The notes below the pieces were generated by a model that was not told where the DNA came from, did no database searches, and saw only the letters and a list, made by a program, of their open reading frames with translations. A DNA stretch of 64,000 bases, taken from positions 49,596 through 113,595 of the forward strand of contig JAFEDD010000023.1 of NCBI GenBank assembly GCA_018241765.1, in the 5' to 3' direction. Each line of letters opens with the position of its first letter. Position 1 is the first letter of the stretch. This document shows, one piece after another, positions 2,261 to 63,938 of the stretch. This DNA is from Pseudomonadota bacterium (lineage in GTDB: Bacteria > Pseudomonadota > Gammaproteobacteria > Burkholderiales > Casimicrobiaceae). Made by a program: the position numbers and the translations under genes.

Positions 2261-3754
2261 ATGCGCAACATCTTCTCCGGCATCAGCACCATCCTCGCCG
2301 TCTGCACGCTGCTCGCCGCAGCGCCAACCAGCGCGGCGCCGGGGGATTTGGATATCACCTTCGGCGCCGGTTCTGGCAAGGTGATAACCACGATTGGCAC
2401 GAGCCAGGACCGAGGACGTGCGATCGCCCTGCAACCCGACGGCAAGATCGTCGTCGCCGGGTATTGCGTGAACGGGATCAACTACGAGTTCTGCCTCGCT
2501 CGCTATCAGTTCAACGGCGCACTCGACACCGATTTTGGTTCAGGCGGCACGGTCATCAGCCCCTTCGATTCATCCGACGGCCTAGCTTGGGCCATCGCAC
2601 TTCAACCCGACGGCAAGATCGTCGTCGCCGGGGCTTGCTACAACAGCACCAACGGCGATTTCTGCCTCGCCCGCTATCAGGCCAGCGGCGCGCTCGACAC
2701 CGGTTTTGGTTCAGGCGGCAAGGTCATCAGCCCCATCGGTTCAGGCCACGATGCAGCCTACGCCGTCGCGCTGCAACCTGATGGCAAGATCGTCCTCGCC
2801 GGAGGTTGCCGGAACGGCAGTGGCTACGTCTTCTGCCTCGCTCGCTATCAGGTCAACGGCGCGCTCGACACCAGTTTTGGTTCAGACGGCAAGGTCATCA
2901 ACCCCAACGGCTCTGACGACGACCGAGCCTGGGCCATCGCCCTGCAACCCGACGGCAAGATCGTCGTCGCCGGGTCTTGCAAGAACGGCAGCAACTTTGA
3001 CTTCTGCCTCGCCCGCTATCAGGCCAACGGCGCGCTCGACTCCGGTTTTGGTTCAGGCGGCACGGTCATCAGCCCCATCGGTTCATACAACGACTTTGGC
3101 CAAGCCATCGCGCTGCAACCGGACGGCAAAATCGTCGCCGCCGGGTCTTGCGAAAACGGCAGCAAGAACGACTTCTGCCTCGCCCGCTATCAGGCCAACG
3201 GCGCGCTCGACTCCGGCTTTGGTTCAGGCGGCAAGATCATCAGCCCCATCAGTTCATCCACCGACTTTGGCGCTGCCATCGCGCTGCAACCCGACGGCAA
3301 GATCGTCGTCGCCGGGTCTTGCGCGGGTGTCAGCAGCTACGACTTCTGCCTTGCTCGCTATCAGGCCAACGGCGCACTCGACACCAGTTTTGGTTCAGGC
3401 GGCAAGGTCATCAGCCCCATCGGTTCATCCACCGACTATGACGGCGCCATCGCGCTGCAACCCGACGGCAAGATCGTCGTCGCCGGGTCTTGCGACAACG
3501 GCAGCGACTACGACTTCTGCCTCGCCCGCTTCGAGGGCGGGCCGTTCGGCTATCGCAACTGCACGATGGACATCGACGGTGATGGTGTCGTGCTCGCGAC
3601 GACCGACGCGCTGCTTCTTGCCCGCACGTCACTCGGCATGACCGGCAGCGCTGTCATCAACGGCATCAGCTTCGCCAGCCACGCCACCCGCAAGACCTGG
3701 CCTGACATCCGCAACTATCTGATCACCCAGTGCGGCATGACGCTCGCGCCGTAG
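2261..3754 (+). CDS. Secreted delta-60 repeat (beta-propeller-like) protein with C-terminal DxDGDG module
   Basis: Signal peptide; seven ALQPDGKIVVAG...ARY...GALDxxFG repeats; C-terminal CTMDIDGDG...TTDALLLAR..LGMTG. Confidence 0.85.
   Translation: MRNIFSGISTILAVCTLLAAAPTSAAPGDLDITFGAGSGKVITTIGTSQDRGRAIALQPDGKIVVAGYCVNGINYEFCLARYQFNGALDTDFGSGGTVISPFDSSDGLAWAIALQPDGKIVVAGACYNSTNGDFCLARYQASGALDTGFGSGGKVISPIGSGHDAAYAVALQPDGKIVLAGGCRNGSGYVFCLARYQVNGALDTSFGSDGKVINPNGSDDDRAWAIALQPDGKIVVAGSCKNGSNFDFCLARYQANGALDSGFGSGGTVISPIGSYNDFGQAIALQPDGKIVAAGSCENGSKNDFCLARYQANGALDSGFGSGGKIISPISSSTDFGAAIALQPDGKIVVAGSCAGVSSYDFCLARYQANGALDTSFGSGGKVISPIGSSTDYDGAIALQPDGKIVVAGSCDNGSDYDFCLARFEGGPFGYRNCTMDIDGDGVVLATTDALLLARTSLGMTGSAVINGISFASHATRKTWPDIRNYLITQCGMTLAP
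2341..3531 (+). repeat. Intragenic tandem repeat, period exactly 171 bp (57 aa), seven units
   Basis: Leu codon of ALQPDGK starts at 2429, 2600, 2771, 2942, 3113, 3284, 3455. Confidence 0.95.
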
Positions 3755-3931: not shown

Positions 3932-3965
3932 GCGTAGCCTCGCTGCAACGAAGTGGAATCGAGGG
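3932..3965 (+). repeat. GTAG-type REP element, copy 1
   Basis: GCGTAGCCTCGCTGCAACGAAGTGGAATCGAGGG; internal CCTCG...CGAGG palindrome after a GTAG tetranucleotide. Confidence 0.8.
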
Positions 3966-4009: not shown

Positions 4010-4043
4010 GCGTAGCCTCGATGGAACGAAGTGGAATCGAGGG
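4010..4043 (+). repeat. GTAG-type REP element, copy 2
   Basis: GCGTAGCCTCGATGGAACGAAGTGGAATCGAGGG. Confidence 0.85.
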
Positions 4044-4296: not shown

Positions 4297-4400
4297 ATGT
4301 TTTTGAGTACTTCGTATGAGAGTTTTTTAGATTTTCAAGTCGACTTTTGCCGTATTTCGAGCTGGAAGCCCGTTGTAGATGCGCCTTCCAGCATCAAGCT
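4297..4400. repeat. ~115 bp dispersed palindrome, copy A (left arm degenerate and shortened)
   Basis: Dyad AAGTC|GACTTT at 4341/4342; right arm AAGCCCGTTGTAGATGC at 4366; outer AAGCT at 4396. Confidence 0.7.
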
Positions 4401-4432
4401 GTATCGCGTGCCAATTCCGTGTGGAAGCGCAG

Positions 4433-4467
4433 CACGTACCCTCGATAGAACGAAGTGGAATCGAGGG
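4433..4467 (+). repeat. GTAG-type REP element, copy 3 (variant)
   Basis: CACGTACCCTCGATAGAACGAAGTGGAATCGAGGG. Confidence 0.75.
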
Positions 4468-23550: not shown

Positions 23551-23639
23551 TGCTCTGTGCCTCACTCAGTCATGTGTGTGCGAACGATTGTCGCGCAACC
23601 GCACGCGGGTGAACGTCGCAGCGCCATGAAAACTCAAAC

Positions 23640-23754
23640 AACTTTTTTCTACAAGCCGCATTCATAACGGGCTTGGAAGCCGAAAACGTTAAAACTCGAC
23701 TTTTGGCGATTTCGCGCTGCAAGCCCATTGTGGACGCCATTTGCGCATGAAGTT
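23640..23754. repeat. ~115 bp dispersed palindrome, copy B
   Basis: AACTTTT...TTCATAACGGGCTT-23-dyad(23697/8)-23-AAGCCCATTGTGGACGC...AAGTT. Confidence 0.9.
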
Positions 23755-23859
23755 ATATCGATTCCACCGCGCTATGTCGACGCTCCAGCGGGCAGACCAC
23801 GGATCGAGGTCGCTCGCACACCGTGGGACCCGATTGACCATCATCGAACGCAACCCAGC

Positions 23860-23893
23860 GCGTAGCCTCGATGCAACGAAGTGGAATCGAGGG
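23860..23893 (+). repeat. GTAG-type REP element, copy 4
   Basis: GCGTAGCCTCGATGCAACGAAGTGGAATCGAGGG. Confidence 0.85.
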
Positions 23894-24031: not shown

Positions 24032-24065
24032 CCCTCGATTCCACTTCGTTGCATCGAGGCTACGC
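24032..24065 (-). repeat. GTAG-type REP element, copy 5 (inverted relative to copy 4)
   Basis: CCCTCGATTCCACTTCGTTGCATCGAGGCTACGC is the exact reverse complement of copy 4. Confidence 0.88.
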
Positions 24066-24331
24066 TTGCAGCGCCGTGTCGACGCTCAGCGGGAAGGCGA
24101 CGGCACATGGTCGCTCGCACACCGTGGGACCCGATTGACCATCATCGAACGCAACCCAGCGCGGTCAAGCCCGCGCCTACCGCGGGCTTCGCTACCCAGA
24201 GCGATCGCGGTCGCATTCGGGTCGTTTCGGGAGACGCCCATTTTCGAACCGCGCGCACGCGATTTTTTACAACCTACCTATAATCGCCGCACTTGTAAAT
24301 TGTCACGTTCGTCCTCCCTCCAGAGCTCATC

Positions 24332-38970: not shown

Positions 38971-39118
38971 GCCGCGCCCGCCCGCCGCCCGCGAATCCGA
39001 CACCGGCCACGACCAACGCGCCGGCCATCGACAAAACATCAACAAAATCAACGCATTATGCAAATGCGCACGCCTTTCTTGGCTCGCGACGCGCATCCAT
39101 GCGATGTTTTTTCATAAC

Positions 39119-39232
39119 AACTTTTTCATGGAAGCACGTCCATAACAGGCTTGGAGCCCGTTTTCGCTTGATGTCGACTTTTGGCGTTTTCAGCTTCCAA
39201 GCCTGCTATAGACGTCATCGCAGTAAAAAGCT
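39119..39232. repeat. ~115 bp dispersed palindrome, copy C
   Basis: AACTTTTT...TCCATAACAGGCTT-23-dyad(39175/6)-23-AAGCCTGCTATAGACG...AAAAAGCT. Confidence 0.9.
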
Positions 39233-39383
39233 ATTGGCGCACACGATGTCCGCGCGGGCAGCGTGAGCACGAAACCGCACAAAAAAAGGCGTCACCCGGC
39301 AACCCCATCACCCGATCCGGCTCGTTTCAGTCACCAACGGCCCCGCATCGGGGCTCGCCCCGGCCCTCGGAAAGGAGCCCTCC

Positions 39384-40253
39384 ATGTTGCACAAAGCCTT
39401 GTTCGTCGCCGTCGCCGCCGCCACGGTCGCCCTCGCCGCGCCGACGCCGGCCGCCGCCGTCGGCCGCATCGCCGACGTCACCGTCTTCGACCGCGACACG
39501 GGTCGCACGCTGCCGATCTACACCTATCGCGGCGAGTACTGGGTCGCCGGACGGCCCGGCGCCAAGTACGCCATCTCGGTGCGCAACCTCGGTCCCGGCC
39601 GCATCCTGGCCGTGACCTCGGTCGACGGCGTCAACGTGGTGAGCGGGCAGACCGCCGGCATCAACCAGCCCGGCTACGTGTTCGATGGCTATCAGAGCTA
39701 CCAGATCGCCGGTTGGCGCAAGAGCAACGCGCAGATCGCCGCGTTCGAGTTCGTCGCCTCCGGCGCCTCCTACGCCGAGCGCACCGGACGGCCGGCCAAC
39801 GTCGGCGTCATCGGCGTCGCGGTGTTTCGCGAACTCGTGCGCCCGCCGCTGCCGGTCGAACCGCAGGTCTACCCGGGCTCGCCCTACGGGGGCGGCAAGG
39901 CGCAGGCCGATGGCGCACGCTCGGCTCCTTCGGCGGCAGTGCCAGCGCCGGCGCCTGCGGAATCTTCGGCCCCGATGAGCGAACCGCCCGCCGCAGCGAG
40001 CGCCAGAAGCGCCAACCGCGAGAAGCTCGGCACCGGTCACGGTGAGCGCGAATGGTCGTCGGCGACGACAACCGACTTCGAGCGCGCGAGGTCCAGCCCG
40101 AACGAAGTCATCAGCATCCGCTACGACAGCTACGACAACCTCGTCGCGATGGGCATCGTGCCGGCGCCGCGCCCGCCGTGGCCGCGCAGCCCGAACCCGT
40201 TCCCGAGTGACAACGGCTACGTGCCCGACCCGCCACCGCGCCATCGCTGGTAG
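39384..40253 (+). CDS. Exported hypothetical protein upstream of the ECF sigma factor
   Basis: RBS AAGGAG; signal peptide; SVDGVNV, NVGVIGVAVFRE, LGTGHG, IRYD motifs; Pro/Ala linker. Confidence 0.8.
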   Translation: MLHKALFVAVAAATVALAAPTPAAAVGRIADVTVFDRDTGRTLPIYTYRGEYWVAGRPGAKYAISVRNLGPGRILAVTSVDGVNVVSGQTAGINQPGYVFDGYQSYQIAGWRKSNAQIAAFEFVASGASYAERTGRPANVGVIGVAVFRELVRPPLPVEPQVYPGSPYGGGKAQADGARSAPSAAVPAPAPAESSAPMSEPPAAASARSANREKLGTGHGEREWSSATTTDFERARSSPNEVISIRYDSYDNLVAMGIVPAPRPPWPRSPNPFPSDNGYVPDPPPRHRW

Positions 40254-40300
40254 GCGGTGGGCTGGATGCTGGAGGCGGCCCCGCGTGGATAATCCCGCGC

Positions 40301-40888
40301 ATGGTCGCCGCCAGCGAAGACACCGACGAGACCCTGATGCGCCGCTACGCCGGAGGCGACATGAACGCATTTGCAGCCCTCTACGACCGCCACGAGCGCG
40401 CGCTGTGGCGCTTCGTGCTGCGCAGCGTCCAGAGCGCCGCCGTCGCCGATGATCTCGCGCAGGACGTCTGGTTCGCCGTCACCCGCGCCGCCCAGCGCTA
40501 CCAGCCGAGCGCCAAATTCCGCACCTGGCTCTTCACGATGGCGCGCAACCGCATCATCGATCACGCCCGCACCAGCAAACCCCACCACAGTCTCGACGCC
40601 GAGGGCGACGACGGCGAGCCGATGTTCTCCGAACTCGCGGCCGAGTCGCGCCTCGGCCCGCTGCGCGCCGTCAGCTCGCGCGAAGAAGCGCGCGCGCTGA
40701 TCGAGGCCATCGAGCAATTGCCGCCCGAGCAACGCGAAGCCTTCCTGCTGCAAGCCGAGGGCGACATGAGCGTCGAGGACATCGCCGCCGCCACCGGCGT
40801 CAGCTTCGAGACCGCCAAGAGCCGCCTGCGCTATGCGCGCAACAAGCTGAAGGCGCTGCTCGCCGATCACGCGCAGGCTCGGCCATGA
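40301..40888 (+). CDS. ECF RNA polymerase sigma factor
   Basis: Region 2 DLAQDVW...FRTWLFTMARNRIID; region 4 LPPEQREAFLL...ETAKSRLRYA. Confidence 0.95.
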   Translation: MVAASEDTDETLMRRYAGGDMNAFAALYDRHERALWRFVLRSVQSAAVADDLAQDVWFAVTRAAQRYQPSAKFRTWLFTMARNRIIDHARTSKPHHSLDAEGDDGEPMFSELAAESRLGPLRAVSSREEARALIEAIEQLPPEQREAFLLQAEGDMSVEDIAAATGVSFETAKSRLRYARNKLKALLADHAQARP

Positions 40889-41958
40889 GCGAACGCCGCG
40901 ACCCGCTGCTCGAAGCCTACGAGCGCGCCAGCGCGCTCGACGAGGCACGCCCGTCGCCCGCGTTGCGCGAGGCCGTGCTCGCCCAAGCCGCGCGCGCTGC
41001 CCAAGCCACCGCCGCGCCGCCGCTGCCGCCCGCGCGTGGTCTGCCCGAAGCCATCGTCAACCGCCCCGCCGCCAACCACGGCGCGTGGTACTGGCGCGCA
41101 GCCGCCGGCCTCGTGCTCGGCATCGTCGGTGTGTGGATGTATCGCCTCGGCAGCGCTCCGACGCCGGAAGCAAATGTCGCCCAAGCCCCCGTCGCGGCAC
41201 CGTCCCGCAGCACGGAGTCGGGCGCGGACGCGCCCAGCCAGACGGCCGAAATCGCCGCCAGCACCGCAGCAGGCGCCCCGCCGCCGCCGGCGGCCGAGCC
41301 TCGCACCGCCCTCGCCAGCGCCGCAGCGAGCCGCGCACCCGCTGCACGCGCGCCTGCGCAAGCCAAACCCGCAGCGACCGAGACGAGCGTCGCCGTCGCT
41401 GCCCCCCCGCCCCCACCCGCGCCAGCTGCGGCAGCCAGAGCCCGCGCGGCGCCCCCACCACCGGCATCCGCCGCAGCGCCGCCGCCGGAGCCATTTCCCG
41501 CCGACACCCGCGTCGCCGCCGCACCACAAGCGTCGGTGCGCGCGCCAACGGCACCCGCCGCCGCAGCGCCCTTCCCTTCCGCTTCAGTCGCCGCCGCACC
41601 CGCCGCCGCCAGCGAAGCGCCTTCCGAAGACCGGATCGCGCTCGCCGAAAGCGCCAAGCGTGCCGTTCGCCCCCGCAGCGTTGCGCCGGCGGCCAGCGAG
41701 ACCGCAGCCGTCGCGGAGCCGCCCGCCCAAGCAGCCCGCAGCGGCGACATGACACCCTCGATGCGCCAGGGCATGGCCAACGCCGCACTGTTCGCCGCGC
41801 TGCGCTCGGGAGAAGTGCAAGCCGTGCGCAGCGCCATGGCTCGCGGCGCCGACGTCAATGCCCGCGACGAGCACGGCCGCACGCCGCTACAGATCGCCCG
41901 CGAGGGCAATCACGTCGAAATCATCCGCCTGCTGGAAGCGGCCGGCGCGAAGCCGTGA
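40885..41958 (+). CDS. Putative anti-sigma factor: N-terminal domain, one TM, Ala/Pro linker, C-terminal ankyrin repeat
   Basis: ATGA overlap with the sigma gene; TM WYWRAAAGLVLGIVGVW; GADVNARDEHGRTPLQIA ankyrin signature. Confidence 0.75.
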   Translation: MSERRDPLLEAYERASALDEARPSPALREAVLAQAARAAQATAAPPLPPARGLPEAIVNRPAANHGAWYWRAAAGLVLGIVGVWMYRLGSAPTPEANVAQAPVAAPSRSTESGADAPSQTAEIAASTAAGAPPPPAAEPRTALASAAASRAPAARAPAQAKPAATETSVAVAAPPPPPAPAAAARARAAPPPPASAAAPPPEPFPADTRVAAAPQASVRAPTAPAAAAPFPSASVAAAPAAASEAPSEDRIALAESAKRAVRPRSVAPAASETAAVAEPPAQAARSGDMTPSMRQGMANAALFAALRSGEVQAVRSAMARGADVNARDEHGRTPLQIAREGNHVEIIRLLEAAGAKP

Positions 41959-49504: not shown

Positions 49505-50311
49505 TTACATGCGCGCGAAGCGGTGCGCGTGGTGGCGTGACACGACGATGCGCTCGGAGACGCCGTGCAGCGACAGCAGCACGCGCCCGCTGAAATCGCG
49601 CTCGGCGCTGCGCACCGCGCGCAAATTGACGATGGTCGAGCGGTGCGCCTGCACGAAGAGCGACGGATCGAGCTGCTCGGCCAGGTCTTTCAGCGCGATG
49701 CGGATCAAGTGCTCCTCGCCATCGCGCGTGTACACCGACACGTATTTGTCCTGCGCCTGAAGGTAGGTGACCTCGTCGACCGGCACGATGCGCACGGTGT
49801 CGCCGAGCCCCGCGCGCAGAAACTGCAACCACGGCGTGCCACCGCCACCGCGGTTCAGGTGCCCCGCCAGCGTGAGCGCGCGCGCCAATTCGTCGAGCGC
49901 ACCGGCCGACGGGCCCCCTGCGGCGAGCGCCAGACGGCGGCGCAGCCGCTCGACCGTTTCCGCCAGGCGTTCGTCGGCGACCGGCTTCACGAGGTAATCC
50001 ACCGCCTCGCGATCGAAGGCTTCGAGCGCATGCGCATCGTAGGCCGTGACGAACACCACCAGCGGCGCCGGAGTGTCGCTGGCCAACAGGCGCTCGGCCA
50101 CCGCGAGACCGCTCAGGCCCGGCATGCGGATGTCCAGAAAGAGCACGTCGGGCGCGTGCTGCTCGACGGCGAGCAGCGCCGCCGGGCCGTTGCCGACGAC
50201 GTCGGCGACGATGAGCTCCGGCCACAGCCGCGCCAGCGCCTCGCGCAACGAGCGCGCAAGCGGCGCCTCGTCCTCGGCGATCAATGCGATGGGGCGTGAT
50301 GGTGAAGGCAT
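49505..50311 (-). CDS. LytTR-family response regulator
   Basis: IAEDE, LFLDIRMPG, FVTAYD, DYLVKP; C-terminal AQDKY...FVQAHRSTIVN; start likely MPSP (50326 possible). Confidence 0.93.
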   Translation of the reverse strand: MPSPSRPIALIAEDEAPLARSLREALARLWPELIVADVVGNGPAALLAVEQHAPDVLFLDIRMPGLSGLAVAERLLASDTPAPLVVFVTAYDAHALEAFDREAVDYLVKPVADERLAETVERLRRRLALAAGGPSAGALDELARALTLAGHLNRGGGGTPWLQFLRAGLGDTVRIVPVDEVTYLQAQDKYVSVYTRDGEEHLIRIALKDLAEQLDPSLFVQAHRSTIVNLRAVRSAERDFSGRVLLSLHGVSERIVVSRHHAHRFARM

Positions 50312-50312
50312 C

Positions 50313-50427
50313 AGCTTTTTCTCCAAATGACGTTCATAACGGGCTTGGCGCTCATTTTTCCTGAAACTCGACTTTCAGTGTTTCTTCGATGCAAGCCCGT
50401 CATGGATGCGGATTACGTGAAAAAGTT
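50313..50427. repeat. ~115 bp dispersed palindrome, copy D
   Basis: AGCTTTTT...TTCATAACGGGCTT-23-dyad(50369/70)-23-AAGCCCGTCATGGATGC...AAAAAGTT. Confidence 0.9.
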
Positions 50428-50452
50428 GTTGACCGTTTTGACGTTCGCAGGG

Positions 50453-57581: not shown

Positions 57582-58277
57582 TCAGTCGAGCTTCATCGTG
57601 AACGGAATCTCCACCTCGTGGCTGACGTCCGATCGCTCCGTGCGGCACGCACTGTCGGTGAGCGGTGTGTTGAACGTGCGCTGCACTGCGTTGCGCATGT
57701 TGGCCGGGGAGACCTCTCTGACGCGAACGTTGGTGAAGGTTCCGTCCGGGTTCACGGTGACCAGGATCGTGCCATCGATGCGGTCGACACCAGCCTTGTT
57801 CATGTCGCGCACCGGTGGCGAATCGGGTCGACACGCGGCCGGCAACTGCGACATGCCAAGGCGGCTGACCGTTGGCCTGGGCGCCGGGGGCGCCGGGGGC
57901 GCTGGCGGCGCCGGGGGCGGCGGTGGCTCGATCTTGTACTCGGTCTTCGGCGGCTCGCTCGTCGTCGTGATGCTGGGCGCGGCGGGCGCCTGTACCTGCA
58001 CCTCGACGGGCGGCACGTACGGAGGCGGCGGCGCGGCCGGCGGCGGCGGCGGCAGATTCGGCATCTTCGGCGGCGGAGGCGGCGGTGGCGGCGGCGGTGG
58101 CGGGGGCAGCTTGACCTCCTCCACGATCTTCGCCTCCAGCGGCTTCTTGATCACTTCCACCGCCTTGCGCGCCAGTCCGGTCACCAACGCGTAGATGATG
58201 AACAGATGCAGCGCAACGACGACAGCGATCGCGACCGATCGCTTGCTCGACTTCGCGGGTTTATAGGTGTAATCCAT
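57582..58277 (-). CDS. tonB: TonB-like energy transducer with divergent C-terminal domain
   Basis: VVALH TM with conserved His, poly-Pro linker, position after exbB-exbD-exbD. Confidence 0.8.
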   Translation of the reverse strand: MDYTYKPAKSSKRSVAIAVVVALHLFIIYALVTGLARKAVEVIKKPLEAKIVEEVKLPPPPPPPPPPPPPKMPNLPPPPPAAPPPPYVPPVEVQVQAPAAPSITTTSEPPKTEYKIEPPPPPAPPAPPAPPAPRPTVSRLGMSQLPAACRPDSPPVRDMNKAGVDRIDGTILVTVNPDGTFTNVRVREVSPANMRNAVQRTFNTPLTDSACRTERSDVSHEVEIPFTMKLD

Positions 58278-63308: not shown

Positions 63309-63543
63309 GTGAGTTTCCCCGTTTGGTGACAAGAACTGACTCGCGCATTCTGCACGGCGCCGCGCTTGCTGTCAGCCCCCTGTCAGCCGTGGCCGCGCCG
63401 CGACGGGTGCGTGCAACGCTGGTGTCTCGCCTGCGCTCGGCGGGCAACAATTTGATTCGATTGATGTTTTTTTGATCGCACGCGCGCTCGGAGCGGGCGT
63501 TCGCGGCCGCTTGGCCCGCCGTTCGCCGCACATGTCATTGATC

Positions 63544-63658
63544 AACTTTTCGTTCAAATGACCTTCATAAAGGGCTTTCAGCGATATTTTCGCCAAAGTC
63601 GACTTTCGGCATATTTCGCACCAAAGCCCGTTATGGATGCGGCTTTTCATGCAAAGTT
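63544..63658. repeat. ~115 bp dispersed palindrome, copy E
   Basis: AACTTTT...TTCATAAAGGGCTT-23-dyad AAAGTC|GACTTT(63600/1)-23-AAGCCCGTTATGGATGC...AAAGTT. Confidence 0.92.
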
Positions 63659-63938
63659 GCTTGCGATTCGTTGTACCGCTGCAACAGGGGGCACGGGGCC
63701 GGGCGTCAGCGGCGCGGCCGACCCTTGTCCGTTGGGACGAACGACGACAGATTGCGACCGGCGTCGACCGGAATTCGGGCCGCTTGGCGTACGATTGCGC
63801 ACTGCCTCGGGGGCGTCAAGGCCACGTCGCCGCAACGCGCGGAACGTGCCGCCCAGTGGGGAACGCCCCGCGCCAGCAGGTCGCGCGCCGCCCCGCTCGC
63901 TCCTCGAACCGGAACTCACGCAATCGGAGGGACTTCCC

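What the first reader, a model, noticed from the sequence alone, without database searches (positions are those of the whole stretch)
63544..63658. Copy E reveals ~10 bp phased A/T tracts symmetric about the dyad, like a DNA-wrapping sequence
Seen: in copy E, A/T tracts are centred at about +/-4.5, 13, 23.5, 32, 44 and 53 bp from a perfect AAAGTC|GACTTT dyad, separated by GC-rich steps, in an otherwise very GC-rich genome. Copy D shows nearly the same positions. Established: symmetric ~10 bp periodic AT/GC alternation over 110-150 bp characterises DNA that wraps proteins, such as nucleosome-positioning sequences and the gyrase cleavage motif with its central 4 bp staggered cut. Inference: the family could be genome-encoded strong gyrase sites, or positioning sites for a histone-like or other wrapping protein, with TCGA as the central 4 bp.
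Basis: inference. Interest (0 to 1): 0.72.

Follow-up and report, generated by a model that had tools for sequence, protein, structure and literature searches.

The report
Dyad-symmetric extragenic repeat with phased A/T tracts
Copy E belongs to an undescribed family of about 120-bp mirror-symmetric intergenic elements in sludge bacteria (Casimicrobiaceae) that selection keeps intact, with A/T tracts about every 10 bp and a centre that is the adenine-methylated motif AGTCGACT in a cultured relative, so it most likely seats a DNA-bending protein complex.

Summary
Copy E has A/T tracts at ±4.5, 13, 23.5, 32, 44 and 53 bp from a perfect AAAGTC|GACTTT dyad. The window holds four full copies and one half copy. 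I recovered 53 non-redundant copies from metagenomes, plus more from Casimicrobium huifangae.

- **Divergence:** copies share only about 53% identity, yet keep fixed blocks in both arms.
- **Shape signal:** positions ±13/14 are A or T in 98-100% of copies, with the two bases mixed.
- **Selection:** orthologous copies carry 52 substitutions, none in block columns.
- **Period:** about 9.5-9.75 bp in the core. An A/T-versus-G/C oscillation of about 10.5-11 bp, locked to the dyad, continues to ±100 bp in flanks that have no sequence conservation.
- **Excluded:** no conserved RNA fold, no target-site duplication, no Rfam match.
- **Gyrase:** the tracts do not sit where the E. coli gyrase motif has them (r = -0.09). 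That reading is unsupported but not excluded.
- **Methylation:** the centre equals AGTCGACT, a published 6mA motif of C. huifangae SJ-1 (329/332 methylated). All three sampled SJ-1 sites are element centres.

Best reading: a DNA-level platform that positions a symmetric bending or wrapping complex. The protein is unknown.

The parts
63541..63661 (.). Copy E, conserved core of the element (about ±61 bp around the dyad at 63600|63601)
   Evidence: nhmmer hit 63533-63668, E = 8e-34. Block pattern GGCTT-N21-TCGACTTT-N17-AAGCC matches on both strands. Sequence read.
63595..63606 (.). Central perfect palindrome AAAGTCGACTTT. It contains AGTCGACT (63597-63604), the 6mA motif 9 of C. huifangae SJ-1.
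   Evidence: TCGAC is kept in all 7 full or near-full copies found without the pattern; later C. huifangae copies include TTGA and CCGA centres. Methylome table in PMC13515534. Both AGTCGACT sites of the window lie in elements.
63572..63577 (+). GGGCTT block, left arm (offsets -29..-24)
   Evidence: Information content 1.3-2.0 bit. It pairs with AAGCCC and is the only helix RNAalifold keeps.
63624..63629 (+). AAGCCC block, right arm (offsets +24..+29)
63584..63590 (.). Left inner A/T tract ATATTTT (offsets -17..-11), conserved in the family only as A-or-T
   Evidence: Offsets -14/-13 are A/T in 98% of 52 copies with about 0.9 bit. The tract is T-rich on the + strand in both arms of C, D and E, so it is not palindromic.
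63611..63616 (.). Right inner A/T tract ATATTT (offsets +11..+16)
   Evidence: Offsets +13/+14 are A/T in 100% of 52 copies and in 100% of 11 pattern-free copies.
63543..63550 (+). Outer block CAACTTTT, left end (family consensus CAGCTTTT)
63653..63659 (+). Outer block AAAGTTG, right end (family consensus AAAAGCTG)
63556..63558 (+). AAA of the GAAAG block (offsets -45..-43). Its mirror TTTT lies at 63644-63647.
   Evidence: Offsets ±44/45 carry 1.45-1.76 bit and were not part of the search pattern.
63494..63540 (.). Left flank: at family level only an A/T-versus-G/C phasing of about 10.5-11 bp, with no sequence conservation
   Evidence: This is a family average, not shown for copy E alone.
63662..63707 (.). 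Right flank: the same family-level phasing
50309..50430 (.). Copy D (dyad 50369|50370). It fills the gap between a histidine kinase gene and a LytTR response regulator gene.
39115..39236 (.). Copy C (dyad 39175|39176)
23637..23758 (.). Copy B (dyad 23697|23698). Identical copies lie on L005-L010 and a 94%-identical ortholog on L070.
4334..4407 (+). Copy A, a half copy: central palindrome plus the right arm. An ortholog lies on L003.

Best explanation
Copy E is one of roughly 300-450 copies per genome of a previously undescribed extragenic element of Casimicrobiaceae, which are Betaproteobacteria of activated sludge. It works as double-stranded DNA, as a two-fold symmetric binding platform.

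**Architecture.**
- Short base-specific blocks, GCTTT-like motifs in alternating orientation, sit at about ±4, ±26, ±44 and ±55 bp, including the central AAAGTCGACTTT. A symmetric, sequence-specific protein or complex would read these.
- Interleaved A/T tracts recur about every 10 bp and put narrow, compressible minor grooves on one face of the helix.
- In the core and in about 45 bp of otherwise unconserved flank on each side, this would let some 200 bp bend or wrap around the complex.

**Proposed role.** The element would fix an architectural complex, either a nucleoid-associated protein or a topoisomerase, at defined intergenic places. The two adenines of the central TCGA are N6-methylated in vivo in a cultured relative.

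**Shown.** Family membership, dyad symmetry, purifying selection on the blocks, A-or-T-only conservation, the phasing, and the identity of the centre with the methylated motif.

**Inferred.** Protein binding, bending or wrapping, and any role in chromosome organisation.
For: - **Real family.** Five copies lie in the window, with 7 pattern matches against 0 expected. 53 non-redundant copies came from metagenomes. Six copies lie in 61.5 kb of the C. huifangae SJ-1 genome.
- **Old copies under selection.** Median pairwise identity is 53%, and 51-68% within the window. In 7 orthologous pairs, all 52 substitutions fall outside the 38 block columns.
- **Conservation of base class only.** Positions ±13/14 are A/T in 98-100% of copies at about 1 bit, and their orientation is independent between arms. 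This is reproduced in 11 pattern-free copies.
- **Phasing.** Core 9.5-9.75 bp. Flanks at offsets 63-112 about 10.5-11 bp: z = 9.6, and 0 of 2000 rotations reach the observed amplitude. The phase is the same in left and right arms and in high- and low-GC hosts. A is about as frequent as T at the peaks, both G and C are raised in the troughs, and information content is 0-0.2 bit.
- **Not an RNA hairpin.** The inner 2 x 17 nt are no more complementary within a copy than between copies. There is no excess of G-U over A-C mismatches on one strand. RNAalifold keeps only 7 pairs at -8 kcal/mol. Rfam gives no hit.
- **Not a promoter, operator or terminator.** Copies occur in tandem (19), convergent (11) and divergent (6) contexts. 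Neighbouring genes are unrelated. No consensus sites were found.
- **The centre is contacted by a protein in vivo.** AGTCGACT is 6mA-modified at 329 of 332 positions in SJ-1 (PMC13515534). All 3 sampled SJ-1 sites, and 6 of 7 sites in C. huifangae-type DNA, are element centres.
Against: - No binding protein is identified, and no footprint, ChIP or cleavage data exist.
- A wedge model, with parameters recalled from memory, predicts no static curvature beyond shuffles: end-to-end/contour 0.953 against 0.949. Any bending would have to be induced by a protein.
- The tract spacings in the core are uneven (9, 9, 11, 8, 12, 9 bp). Several tracts belong to base-specific motifs, so part of the 'periodicity' may only reflect how the binding sites are laid out.
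- The flank oscillation is absent when all 21 arms of the pattern-free copies are pooled (p = 0.39). It appears only in the 8 arms whose outer block is in register (p < 0.01, a post hoc split).
- The mid-arm segment (offsets 30-40) covaries between arms. That also fits an RNA or DNA stem, or concerted evolution.
- Methylation at 99% shows that the centre is not permanently covered.
Confidence: 0.45

Rival explanations
1. The family is a set of genome-encoded strong gyrase sites, a functional analogue of E. coli BIME-2 or the phage Mu strong gyrase site. The G-segment would be cut with a 4-bp stagger at G^TCGA^C and the arms would wrap on the GyrA C-terminal domains.
For: - The element is symmetric, about 120 bp long, and has phased A/T tracts.
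- The flank period of about 10.5-11 bp equals the 10.75 bp of the E. coli gyrase arms.
- BIME-2 shows that a dispersed extragenic repeat can be a transcription-independent gyrase site.
- Copies lie in every intergenic context at about one per 10-15 kb.
Against: - The A/T tracts are not where the E. coli consensus has them: ±4.5, 13.5, 24.5, 32.5, 44.5, 53.5 against ±3.5, 19, 38.5, 49.5, 61. The correlation in dyad register is r = -0.09.
- The phased region spans about 210 bp, more than the 130-bp gyrase motif.
- Strict base-specific blocks are not a property of the degenerate gyrase motif.
- A TCGA overhang puts T, not the quinolone-preferred G, 3' of the cut.
- Gyrase sequence preferences may differ between species, so this does not exclude the reading.
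Confidence: 0.15
2. The family is a non-autonomous mobile element, like a MITE or a REP mobilised by a RAYT transposase. The blocks would be transposase-binding sites, and the flank phasing would reflect a preference for bendable target DNA.
For: - The copies are dispersed, extragenic, numerous and have inverted arms.
- The mid-arm sequence changes by lineage on both arms together: CATAACGGGCTT in the window lineage against TTCAATAAGGGCTT in Casimicrobium.
- Half copies and one split copy exist.
Against: - No target-site duplication at any tested boundary.
- Copies within one genome are only 51-68% identical, so there was no recent burst.
- The ends are less conserved than the internal blocks.
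- Substitutions between orthologs avoid the blocks, which points to selection rather than decay.
- The 860-bp insert in the split copy carries no transposase, and no copy was found in viral contigs.
Confidence: 0.15
3. The element acts as RNA, like ERIC or BOX elements. When co-transcribed it would fold and alter mRNA stability, processing or translation of the neighbouring genes.
For: - Copy D lies inside a two-gene operon, so it must be transcribed. It supplies the likely GGAG and ATG of the response regulator.
- Copy E folds better than shuffles, z = -3.3.
- The mid-arm pairs covary: 69.8% of cells are paired against 64.9% in shuffles.
Against: - The consensus fold keeps only 7 pairs at -8 kcal/mol.
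- About half of the inner-spacer cells are unpaired.
- There is no excess of G-U over A-C mismatches on one strand.
- A-or-T-only columns, and phasing that runs into unconserved flanks, have no explanation at the RNA level.
- Element C lies outside the abundant transcript next to it.
Confidence: 0.08
4. The element is an epigenetic module. Its purpose would be to present AGTCGACT to a dedicated, possibly orphan, adenine methyltransferase, with the methylation state read by another factor.
For: - The 8-bp methylated motif equals the element centre, and nearly all sampled sites are element centres.
- SJ-1 has two orphan methyltransferases.
- The 166 palindromic sites fit a model in which about half of some 300 copies carry the perfect 8-mer.
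Against: - Only about half of the copies carry the perfect 8-mer. In the window, B, C and D do not.
- The methyltransferase may belong to an ordinary restriction-modification system of one strain, while the element is family-wide.
- 99% methylation argues against switching by methylation state.
- It does not explain 200 bp of phased DNA.
Confidence: 0.07

Closest known systems
E. coli BIME-2 / REP elements (gyrase-binding extragenic repeats)
   Same: Dispersed, strictly extragenic, high copy number, built of inverted units. Thought to act as DNA-level protein-binding sites that are independent of transcription (PMC6379681).
   Different: REPs are 35-40-bp G+C-rich stem-loops arranged in mosaics and linked to RAYT transposases. 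This element is a single A/T-rich unit of about 120 bp, with fixed block spacing, A-or-T-only columns and phased flanks.
E. coli gyrase motif / phage Mu strong gyrase site
   Same: Symmetric pattern of more than 100 bp with periodic A/T-G/C alternation around a central 4-bp site. The arm period of 10.75 bp is like the flank period found here.
   Different: Tract positions do not coincide (r = -0.09). The gyrase motif is degenerate and has no invariant blocks. The phased span here is about 210 bp.
ERIC / IRU elements of enterobacteria
   Same: Imperfect palindromes of about 127 bp in extragenic regions, sometimes inside operons (own knowledge).
   Different: ERIC arms pair along their length and the copies are similar in sequence. 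Here the inner third of the arms does not pair and the copies are about 53% identical.
RIP/RIB (BIME-1 with a central IHF site) and Correia/NEMIS elements
   Same: Units of about 100-150 bp with inverted arms around a central protein-binding site that bends DNA (own knowledge).
   Different: The IHF site is asymmetric. Correia elements have terminal inverted repeats and TA duplications. Here the centre is a perfect palindrome and there is no duplication.
Nucleosome-positioning sequences (eukaryotes, archaea)
   Same: Dyad symmetry, alternation of A/T and G/C about every 10 bp over 150-200 bp, and conservation of base class rather than base.
   Different: This is a bacterial host, the element has base-specific blocks, and no histone-fold protein was tested.
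BRE, the Betaproteobacterial repeat element (PMC3110155)
   Same: An intergenic repeat of Betaproteobacteria.
   Different: BRE is about 90 bp, 69% G+C, often tandem and not dyad-symmetric.

Membership tests
E. coli-type gyrase motif / strong gyrase site | Symmetric pattern of about 130 bp centred on a 4-bp cleavage site | tested here: met
   Dyad-symmetric core of about 122 bp around TCGA.
E. coli-type gyrase motif / strong gyrase site | A/T-G/C phase of the arms as in the published consensus (A/T at ±3.5, 19, 38.5, 49.5, 61) | tested here: not met
   r = -0.09 in dyad register. The best shifted correlation is 0.2.
E. coli-type gyrase motif / strong gyrase site | Arm period of about 10.75 bp at offsets 17-66 | tested here: inconclusive
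   The core gives 9.5 bp two-sided and 9.75 bp one-arm in a broad band. A period of 10.5-11 bp appears only at offsets 63-112.
E. coli-type gyrase motif / strong gyrase site | Quinolone-induced cleavage or preferential gyrase binding | not testable with these tools
   Needs Topo-Seq or EMSA.
MITE | Target-site duplication | tested here: not met
   No enrichment of direct repeats of 4-9 bp at any boundary. 3-mers match in up to 7 of 49 copies against 0.8 expected, judged to be residual conservation at the ends.
MITE | Terminal inverted repeats as the best-conserved part, and near-identical copies | tested here: not met
   The ends carry about 1 bit against 2 bit for internal blocks. Identity within one genome is 51-68%.
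REP/BIME | Short G+C-rich stem-loop unit | tested here: not met
   The unit is about 120 bp and 43-46% G+C. A separate REP-like 34-mer exists in the window.
REP/BIME | Associated RAYT (TnpA_REP) gene | not tested
   No whole genome could be scanned.
Structured RNA element (ERIC-like or Rfam family) | Conserved secondary structure with compensatory changes | tested here: inconclusive
   There is no Rfam hit and the consensus fold has 7 pairs. The mid-arm covaries, but 23-36% of cells are unpaired in many of its pairs and about 50% in the inner spacer.
Nucleosome-positioning-like sequence | Dyad-symmetric A/T-G/C alternation of about 10 bp without base identity | tested here: met
   Positions ±13/14 and the flanks at offsets 63-107. 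The signal is weaker in pattern-free copies.
Nucleosome-positioning-like sequence | A co-occurring histone-fold or other wrapping protein | not tested
   No genome-wide protein survey was possible.
Methylation target AGTCGACT (motif 9 of C. huifangae SJ-1) | Exact 8-mer at the element centre | tested here: met
   Copies E and A carry it; B, C and D are one or two bases off. In SJ-1, 3 of 6 sampled copies carry it, and all 3 sampled sites are element centres.

The most novel reading that the evidence does not exclude
These elements are bacterial 'positioning sequences'. About 200 bp of dyad-symmetric, helically phased DNA around a sequence-specific, adenine-methylated core would seat a wrapping nucleoprotein complex, a new nucleoid protein or a topoisomerase, at several hundred fixed intergenic sites. 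That would be a hard-wired chromatin landmark system in a bacterium.
Probability: 0.3. Interest if true: 0.85.

Novelty: new variant of a known kind. Interest (0 to 1): 0.7.

Why it matters
Bacterial extragenic repeats such as REP, BIME and ERIC have been known for 40 years, but what they do as DNA is still unclear.

This family is unusually informative. Its copies are old enough that selection can be read column by column, and what selection keeps includes pure A-or-T positions and a phased A/T-G/C pattern reaching into unconserved flanks. That is a mechanical signature so far documented in bacteria mainly for the statistical gyrase motif.

It occurs in a cultured organism, Casimicrobium huifangae SJ-1, a core activated-sludge bacterium. 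SJ-1 has a complete genome, a published methylome and a new transformation system. The question of which protein sits on these elements, and whether they organise the chromosome, can therefore be tested directly.

It also explains an oddity in the published methylome. The rare 8-bp motif AGTCGACT is essentially the centre of this repeat.

Tried and rejected
- **Rfam.** The whole window at gathering thresholds and copy E at permissive E-values gave only two tRNAs and chance hits.
- **Genome-contig scan.** The pattern GTCGASTTT-N10-25-AAGCCCGTTATG gave four hits. Three are chance; L003 carries a half copy orthologous to copy A.
- **Plasmid and viral collections.** No match.
- **Sigma-54, sigma-70, ECF promoter, IHF, Fis and DnaA-box readings of the blocks.** I inspected these by eye. 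Spacing or invariant bases do not fit, and the consensus scan found nothing.
- **Presence/absence polymorphism from DNA runs at 85% likeness.** Too noisy, and no clean element-sized joint appeared.
- **Metatranscriptome contigs.** They show only that element C lies outside the abundant neighbouring transcript.
- **Fixed-position hairpins in the flanks.** None; the maximum z is 3.4 among about 1900 pairs.
- **Static curvature model.** No difference from shuffles.
- **Avoidance of AGTCGACT outside elements.** The count is 0-2 against a naive expectation of 9.5. I make no claim, because codon-position bias lowers the expectation.
- **Even spacing of copies.** The window gaps of 11-19 kb give a post hoc p of 0.002, but the gaps in SJ-1 are 5.1, 7.0 and 8.0 kb next to an empty stretch of 16 kb. 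I treat it as chance.
- **Literature search for the block sequences.** Only cloning primers turned up.

Full report
**1. The observation**

Copy E is centred on a dyad between 63600 and 63601, inside the perfect palindrome AAAGTCGACTTT (63595-63606). A/T runs of three or more bases are centred at -52, -43, -31.5, -23.5, -13.5, -4.5 and +4.5, +13, +23.5, +32, +45, +53.5. Copies B, C and D have nearly the same layout. The element is 43-46% G+C in a window of 66%.

Each full copy beats base shuffles for periodic power in the 9.25-10.75 bp band (p <= 0.005).

**2. The family**

Repeat finding and a profile search give four full copies: B at 23637-23758, C at 39115-39236, D at 50309-50430 and E at 63541-63661. 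There is also one half copy, A, at 4334-4407.

All full copies fit GGCTT-N21-TCGACTTT-N17-AAGCC. The window has 7 matches, counting both strands and one mismatch, against 0 expected.

A metagenome scan with that pattern returned 85 loci. A profile search confirmed 53 non-redundant full copies, and further copies on the same loci do not fit the pattern.

Exact-protein look-ups identify the organisms.
- The window organism is an uncultured 'Burkholderiales bacterium' that is abundant in activated-sludge and bioreactor metagenomes.
- The more diverged copies come from Casimicrobium huifangae, a cultured Betaproteobacterium of the family Casimicrobiaceae.
- In 61.5 kb of the complete SJ-1 genome there are six copies, about one per 10 kb. 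The window has one per 13 kb. This suggests a few hundred copies per genome.

Nothing similar was found in Rfam, plasmids or viral contigs.

**3. Anatomy and selection**

Copies are old. Median pairwise identity over 120 bp is 53%, and 51-68% among the window copies.

Both arms still keep discrete blocks at fixed distances from the dyad:
- CAGCTTTT at the ends;
- GAAAG at about ±44;
- a lineage-specific segment plus GGGCTT at ±24-37;
- the central AAAGTCGACTTT.

Read along one strand, these are GCTTT-like motifs in alternating orientation.

Columns outside the search pattern are informative. Offsets ±44/45 carry 1.45-1.76 bit. Offsets ±13/14 are A or T in 98-100% of copies but hold only about 1 bit, because A and T are mixed. 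The pairs across the dyad are TA 16, AT 15, TT 13 and AA 7. In C, D and E both inner tracts are T-rich on the same strand, so they are not palindromic.

Seven orthologous pairs (88-98% identical) differ by 52 substitutions, none in the 38 block columns. Eighteen of those columns were fixed by the search pattern. With them left out, zero of 52 is still improbable, about 1e-5 by my arithmetic.

Eleven copies found without the pattern reproduce the A/T positions (0.91-1.0 at ±13/14) and the periodicity (z = 14). They also show that the blocks are not invariant: variants include GGGCTC/GAGCCC, TTGA and CCGA centres, and spacers of 20-21 nt.

**4. Periodicity**

The mean spectrum of 52 copies peaks at 9.5 bp (z about 41) and has no peak at 10.25-10.75 bp. 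Analysed on single arms, which removes the effect of the 9-bp step across the dyad, the core gives 9.75 bp in a broad 9.25-10.5 bp band. The spacings between tracts are uneven: 9, 9, 11, 8, 12 and 9 bp.

Beyond the conserved core the A/T frequency keeps oscillating. Maxima lie near 68, 79, 90 and 100, and minima near 63.5, 73.5, 84, 96 and 107.
- At offsets 63-112 the amplitude is highest at 10.5-11 bp, z = 9.6, and none of 2000 random rotations of the flanks reaches it.
- The phase is the same in left and right arms (-106° and -103°) and in hosts above and below 63.5% G+C.
- The signal is strongest where the flank is non-coding (n = 54, z = 7.7).
- Per-column information there is 0-0.2 bit. 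A is about as frequent as T at the peaks, and both G and C are raised in the troughs.
- No fixed-position hairpin explains it.

One caveat applies. Pooling all 21 arms of the pattern-free copies gives no signal (p = 0.39). The signal appears only in the 8 arms whose outer block is in register (p < 0.01, a post hoc split).

**5. What it is not**

- **Not a conserved RNA.** The inner 2 x 17 nt are no more complementary within a copy than between copies. G-T and A-C mismatches are balanced between strands. RNAalifold keeps only the GGGCTT/AAGCCC helix at -8 kcal/mol. On the full mirror-pairing scheme 69.8% of cells pair, against 64.9% in shuffles, and about half of the inner-spacer cells are unpaired. 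The mid-arm segment does covary. That is also what lineage-specific recognition by a symmetric protein would produce.
- **Not a classical MITE.** There is no target-site duplication, no near-identical copies, and the ends are less conserved than the internal blocks.
- **Not a promoter, operator or terminator.** Neighbouring genes are unrelated: an ABC permease, a short-chain dehydrogenase, a DHDPS-family enzyme, a PAS protein, a LytTR regulator and a TonB-dependent receptor. Copies lie in tandem (19), convergent (11) and divergent (6) contexts. No consensus promoter or terminator is found in copy E.

Copy D fills the gap inside a histidine kinase/response regulator operon and supplies the regulator's likely GGAG and ATG.

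**6. The gyrase hypothesis**

The E. coli gyrase motif is 130 bp and symmetric. It has a central part at -16..+19 and arms periodic at 10.75 bp. BIME-2 repeats are transcription-independent gyrase sites (PMC6379681).

The published 133-bp consensus has A/T tracts at ±3.5, 19, 38.5, 49.5 and 61. The family's A/T profile correlates with it at r = -0.09 in dyad register.

Quinolones favour scission before G. A 4-bp stagger on TCGA would place T there.

The flank period matches 10.75 bp, but it lies at 63-107 bp, outside the gyrase footprint. So the family is not a member of the E. coli-type motif. A gyrase with different preferences cannot be excluded.

**7. Curvature**

A wedge model, with parameters recalled from memory and therefore approximate, predicts no static curvature above dinucleotide shuffles. 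End-to-end/contour is 0.953 against 0.949, and the net bend is 24° against 40°. A phased A-tract control bends strongly in the same model, and the gyrase consensus is also 'straight'. The phasing therefore points to direction-dependent bendability rather than to an intrinsic bend.

**8. Link to a published methylome**

SMRT sequencing of C. huifangae SJ-1 found nine methylated motifs. Motif 9 is AGTCGACT, with 6mA at position 6, modified at 329 of 332 positions. That is 166 palindromic sites. Two of the strain's methyltransferases are orphans (PMC13515534).

AGTCGACT is exactly offsets -4..+4 of the element consensus.
- In the window both AGTCGACT sites are element centres (A and E), although there are 56 GTCGAC sites.
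- In 545 kb of loci there are 33 sites inside elements and 2 outside, and both outside sites are artefacts of how the loci were selected.
- In 61.5 kb of SJ-1 itself all 3 sites are element centres, and 3 of the 6 copies carry the perfect 8-mer.

So the rare methylated 8-mer is essentially the mark of this repeat. The central adenines are reached by an enzyme in vivo at almost every copy. Whether the enzyme is tied to the element or merely shares its palindrome is open.

**9. Interpretation**

The combination fits DNA that is recognised sequence-specifically and must also deform on a protein surface. The parts of that combination are:
- two-fold symmetric base-specific blocks;
- A-or-T-only columns;
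- roughly helical phasing that runs into unconserved flanks;
- purifying selection;
- indifference to the surrounding genes.

I commit to that reading at 0.45. The bound complex is unknown. Rivals are a gyrase site family (0.15), a decayed or slowly moving mobile element (0.15), an RNA-level element (0.08) and a methylation module (0.07).

Half copies keep one arm plus the whole central palindrome. This suggests that arm plus centre is a stable sub-unit.

**10. Novelty**

No described family matches. BRE of Betaproteobacteria is G+C-rich, about 90 bp and tandem. REP, BIME, ERIC and Correia elements differ in the ways listed under closest known families. It is a new variant of the known class of bacterial extragenic repeats. 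It has an unusually clear DNA-mechanics signature and sits in a cultured host that can now be transformed.

Noticed in passing
window 3932-3965, 4010-4043, 4435-4467, 23860-23893, 24032-24065 (inverted): A second, REP-like repeat, GCGTAGCCTCGATGCAACGAAGTGGAATCGAGGG (7-bp stem CCTCGAT/ATCGAGG with a 12-nt loop), shares the intergenic regions of element copies A and B.
   Followed up: no
window 23786-23862 and 24087-24163: A 77-nt direct repeat, 91% identical, lies 301 bp apart in the same intergenic region as copy B.
   Followed up: no
window 2375-3529: Six to seven tandem units of 171 bp lie inside ORF 2261-3754. They encode DUF5122 beta-propeller blades.
   Followed up: partly
window 39342-41423: Gene 39384-40253 (289 aa, no Pfam domain) and the stretch after it are by far the most abundant part of the region in sludge metatranscriptome contigs: depth about 47 against 1-5 around it. 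The RNA contigs start about 110-160 bp beyond element C.
   Followed up: partly
L038 9442-9499 and 10362-10430: An element copy is split about 8 bp left of its centre by an insert of about 860 bp. The insert carries a 200-aa lipoprotein-like ORF and no transposase. ATTT(T)TGA occurs at both junctions.
   Followed up: partly
window 4334-4407; L003 3444-3513; L098 749-810; L080 7170-7238: Half copies keep one arm plus the complete central palindrome and are conserved between related genomes. L003 is a 3.8-kb contig binned as Opitutaceae. It carries the ortholog of copy A, so it is probably mis-binned.
   Followed up: partly
window 50309-50330: The likely start codon (50311-50309, minus strand) and GGAG of the LytTR response regulator lie inside the outer block of copy D. 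In many other copies an outward-reading ATG also abuts the element end (...AAAAGYTGATG).
   Followed up: partly
window, copies at 4.3, 23.7, 39.2, 50.4, 63.6 kb: Spacing in the window is even: 19.3, 15.5, 11.2 and 13.2 kb. A minimum gap of at least 11.2 kb has a post hoc probability of about 0.002. In SJ-1 the gaps are 5-8 kb next to an empty 16 kb, so this is probably chance.
   Followed up: yes
window 57879-58101: A GGC-rich, low-complexity stretch (glycine-rich if translated) shows internal direct repeats.
   Followed up: no
L097 16696: This is the only AGTCGACT site seen outside an element in C. huifangae-type DNA. It lies in a peroxiredoxin-family gene and is absent from the part of the related contig L103 that was fetched.
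   Followed up: no
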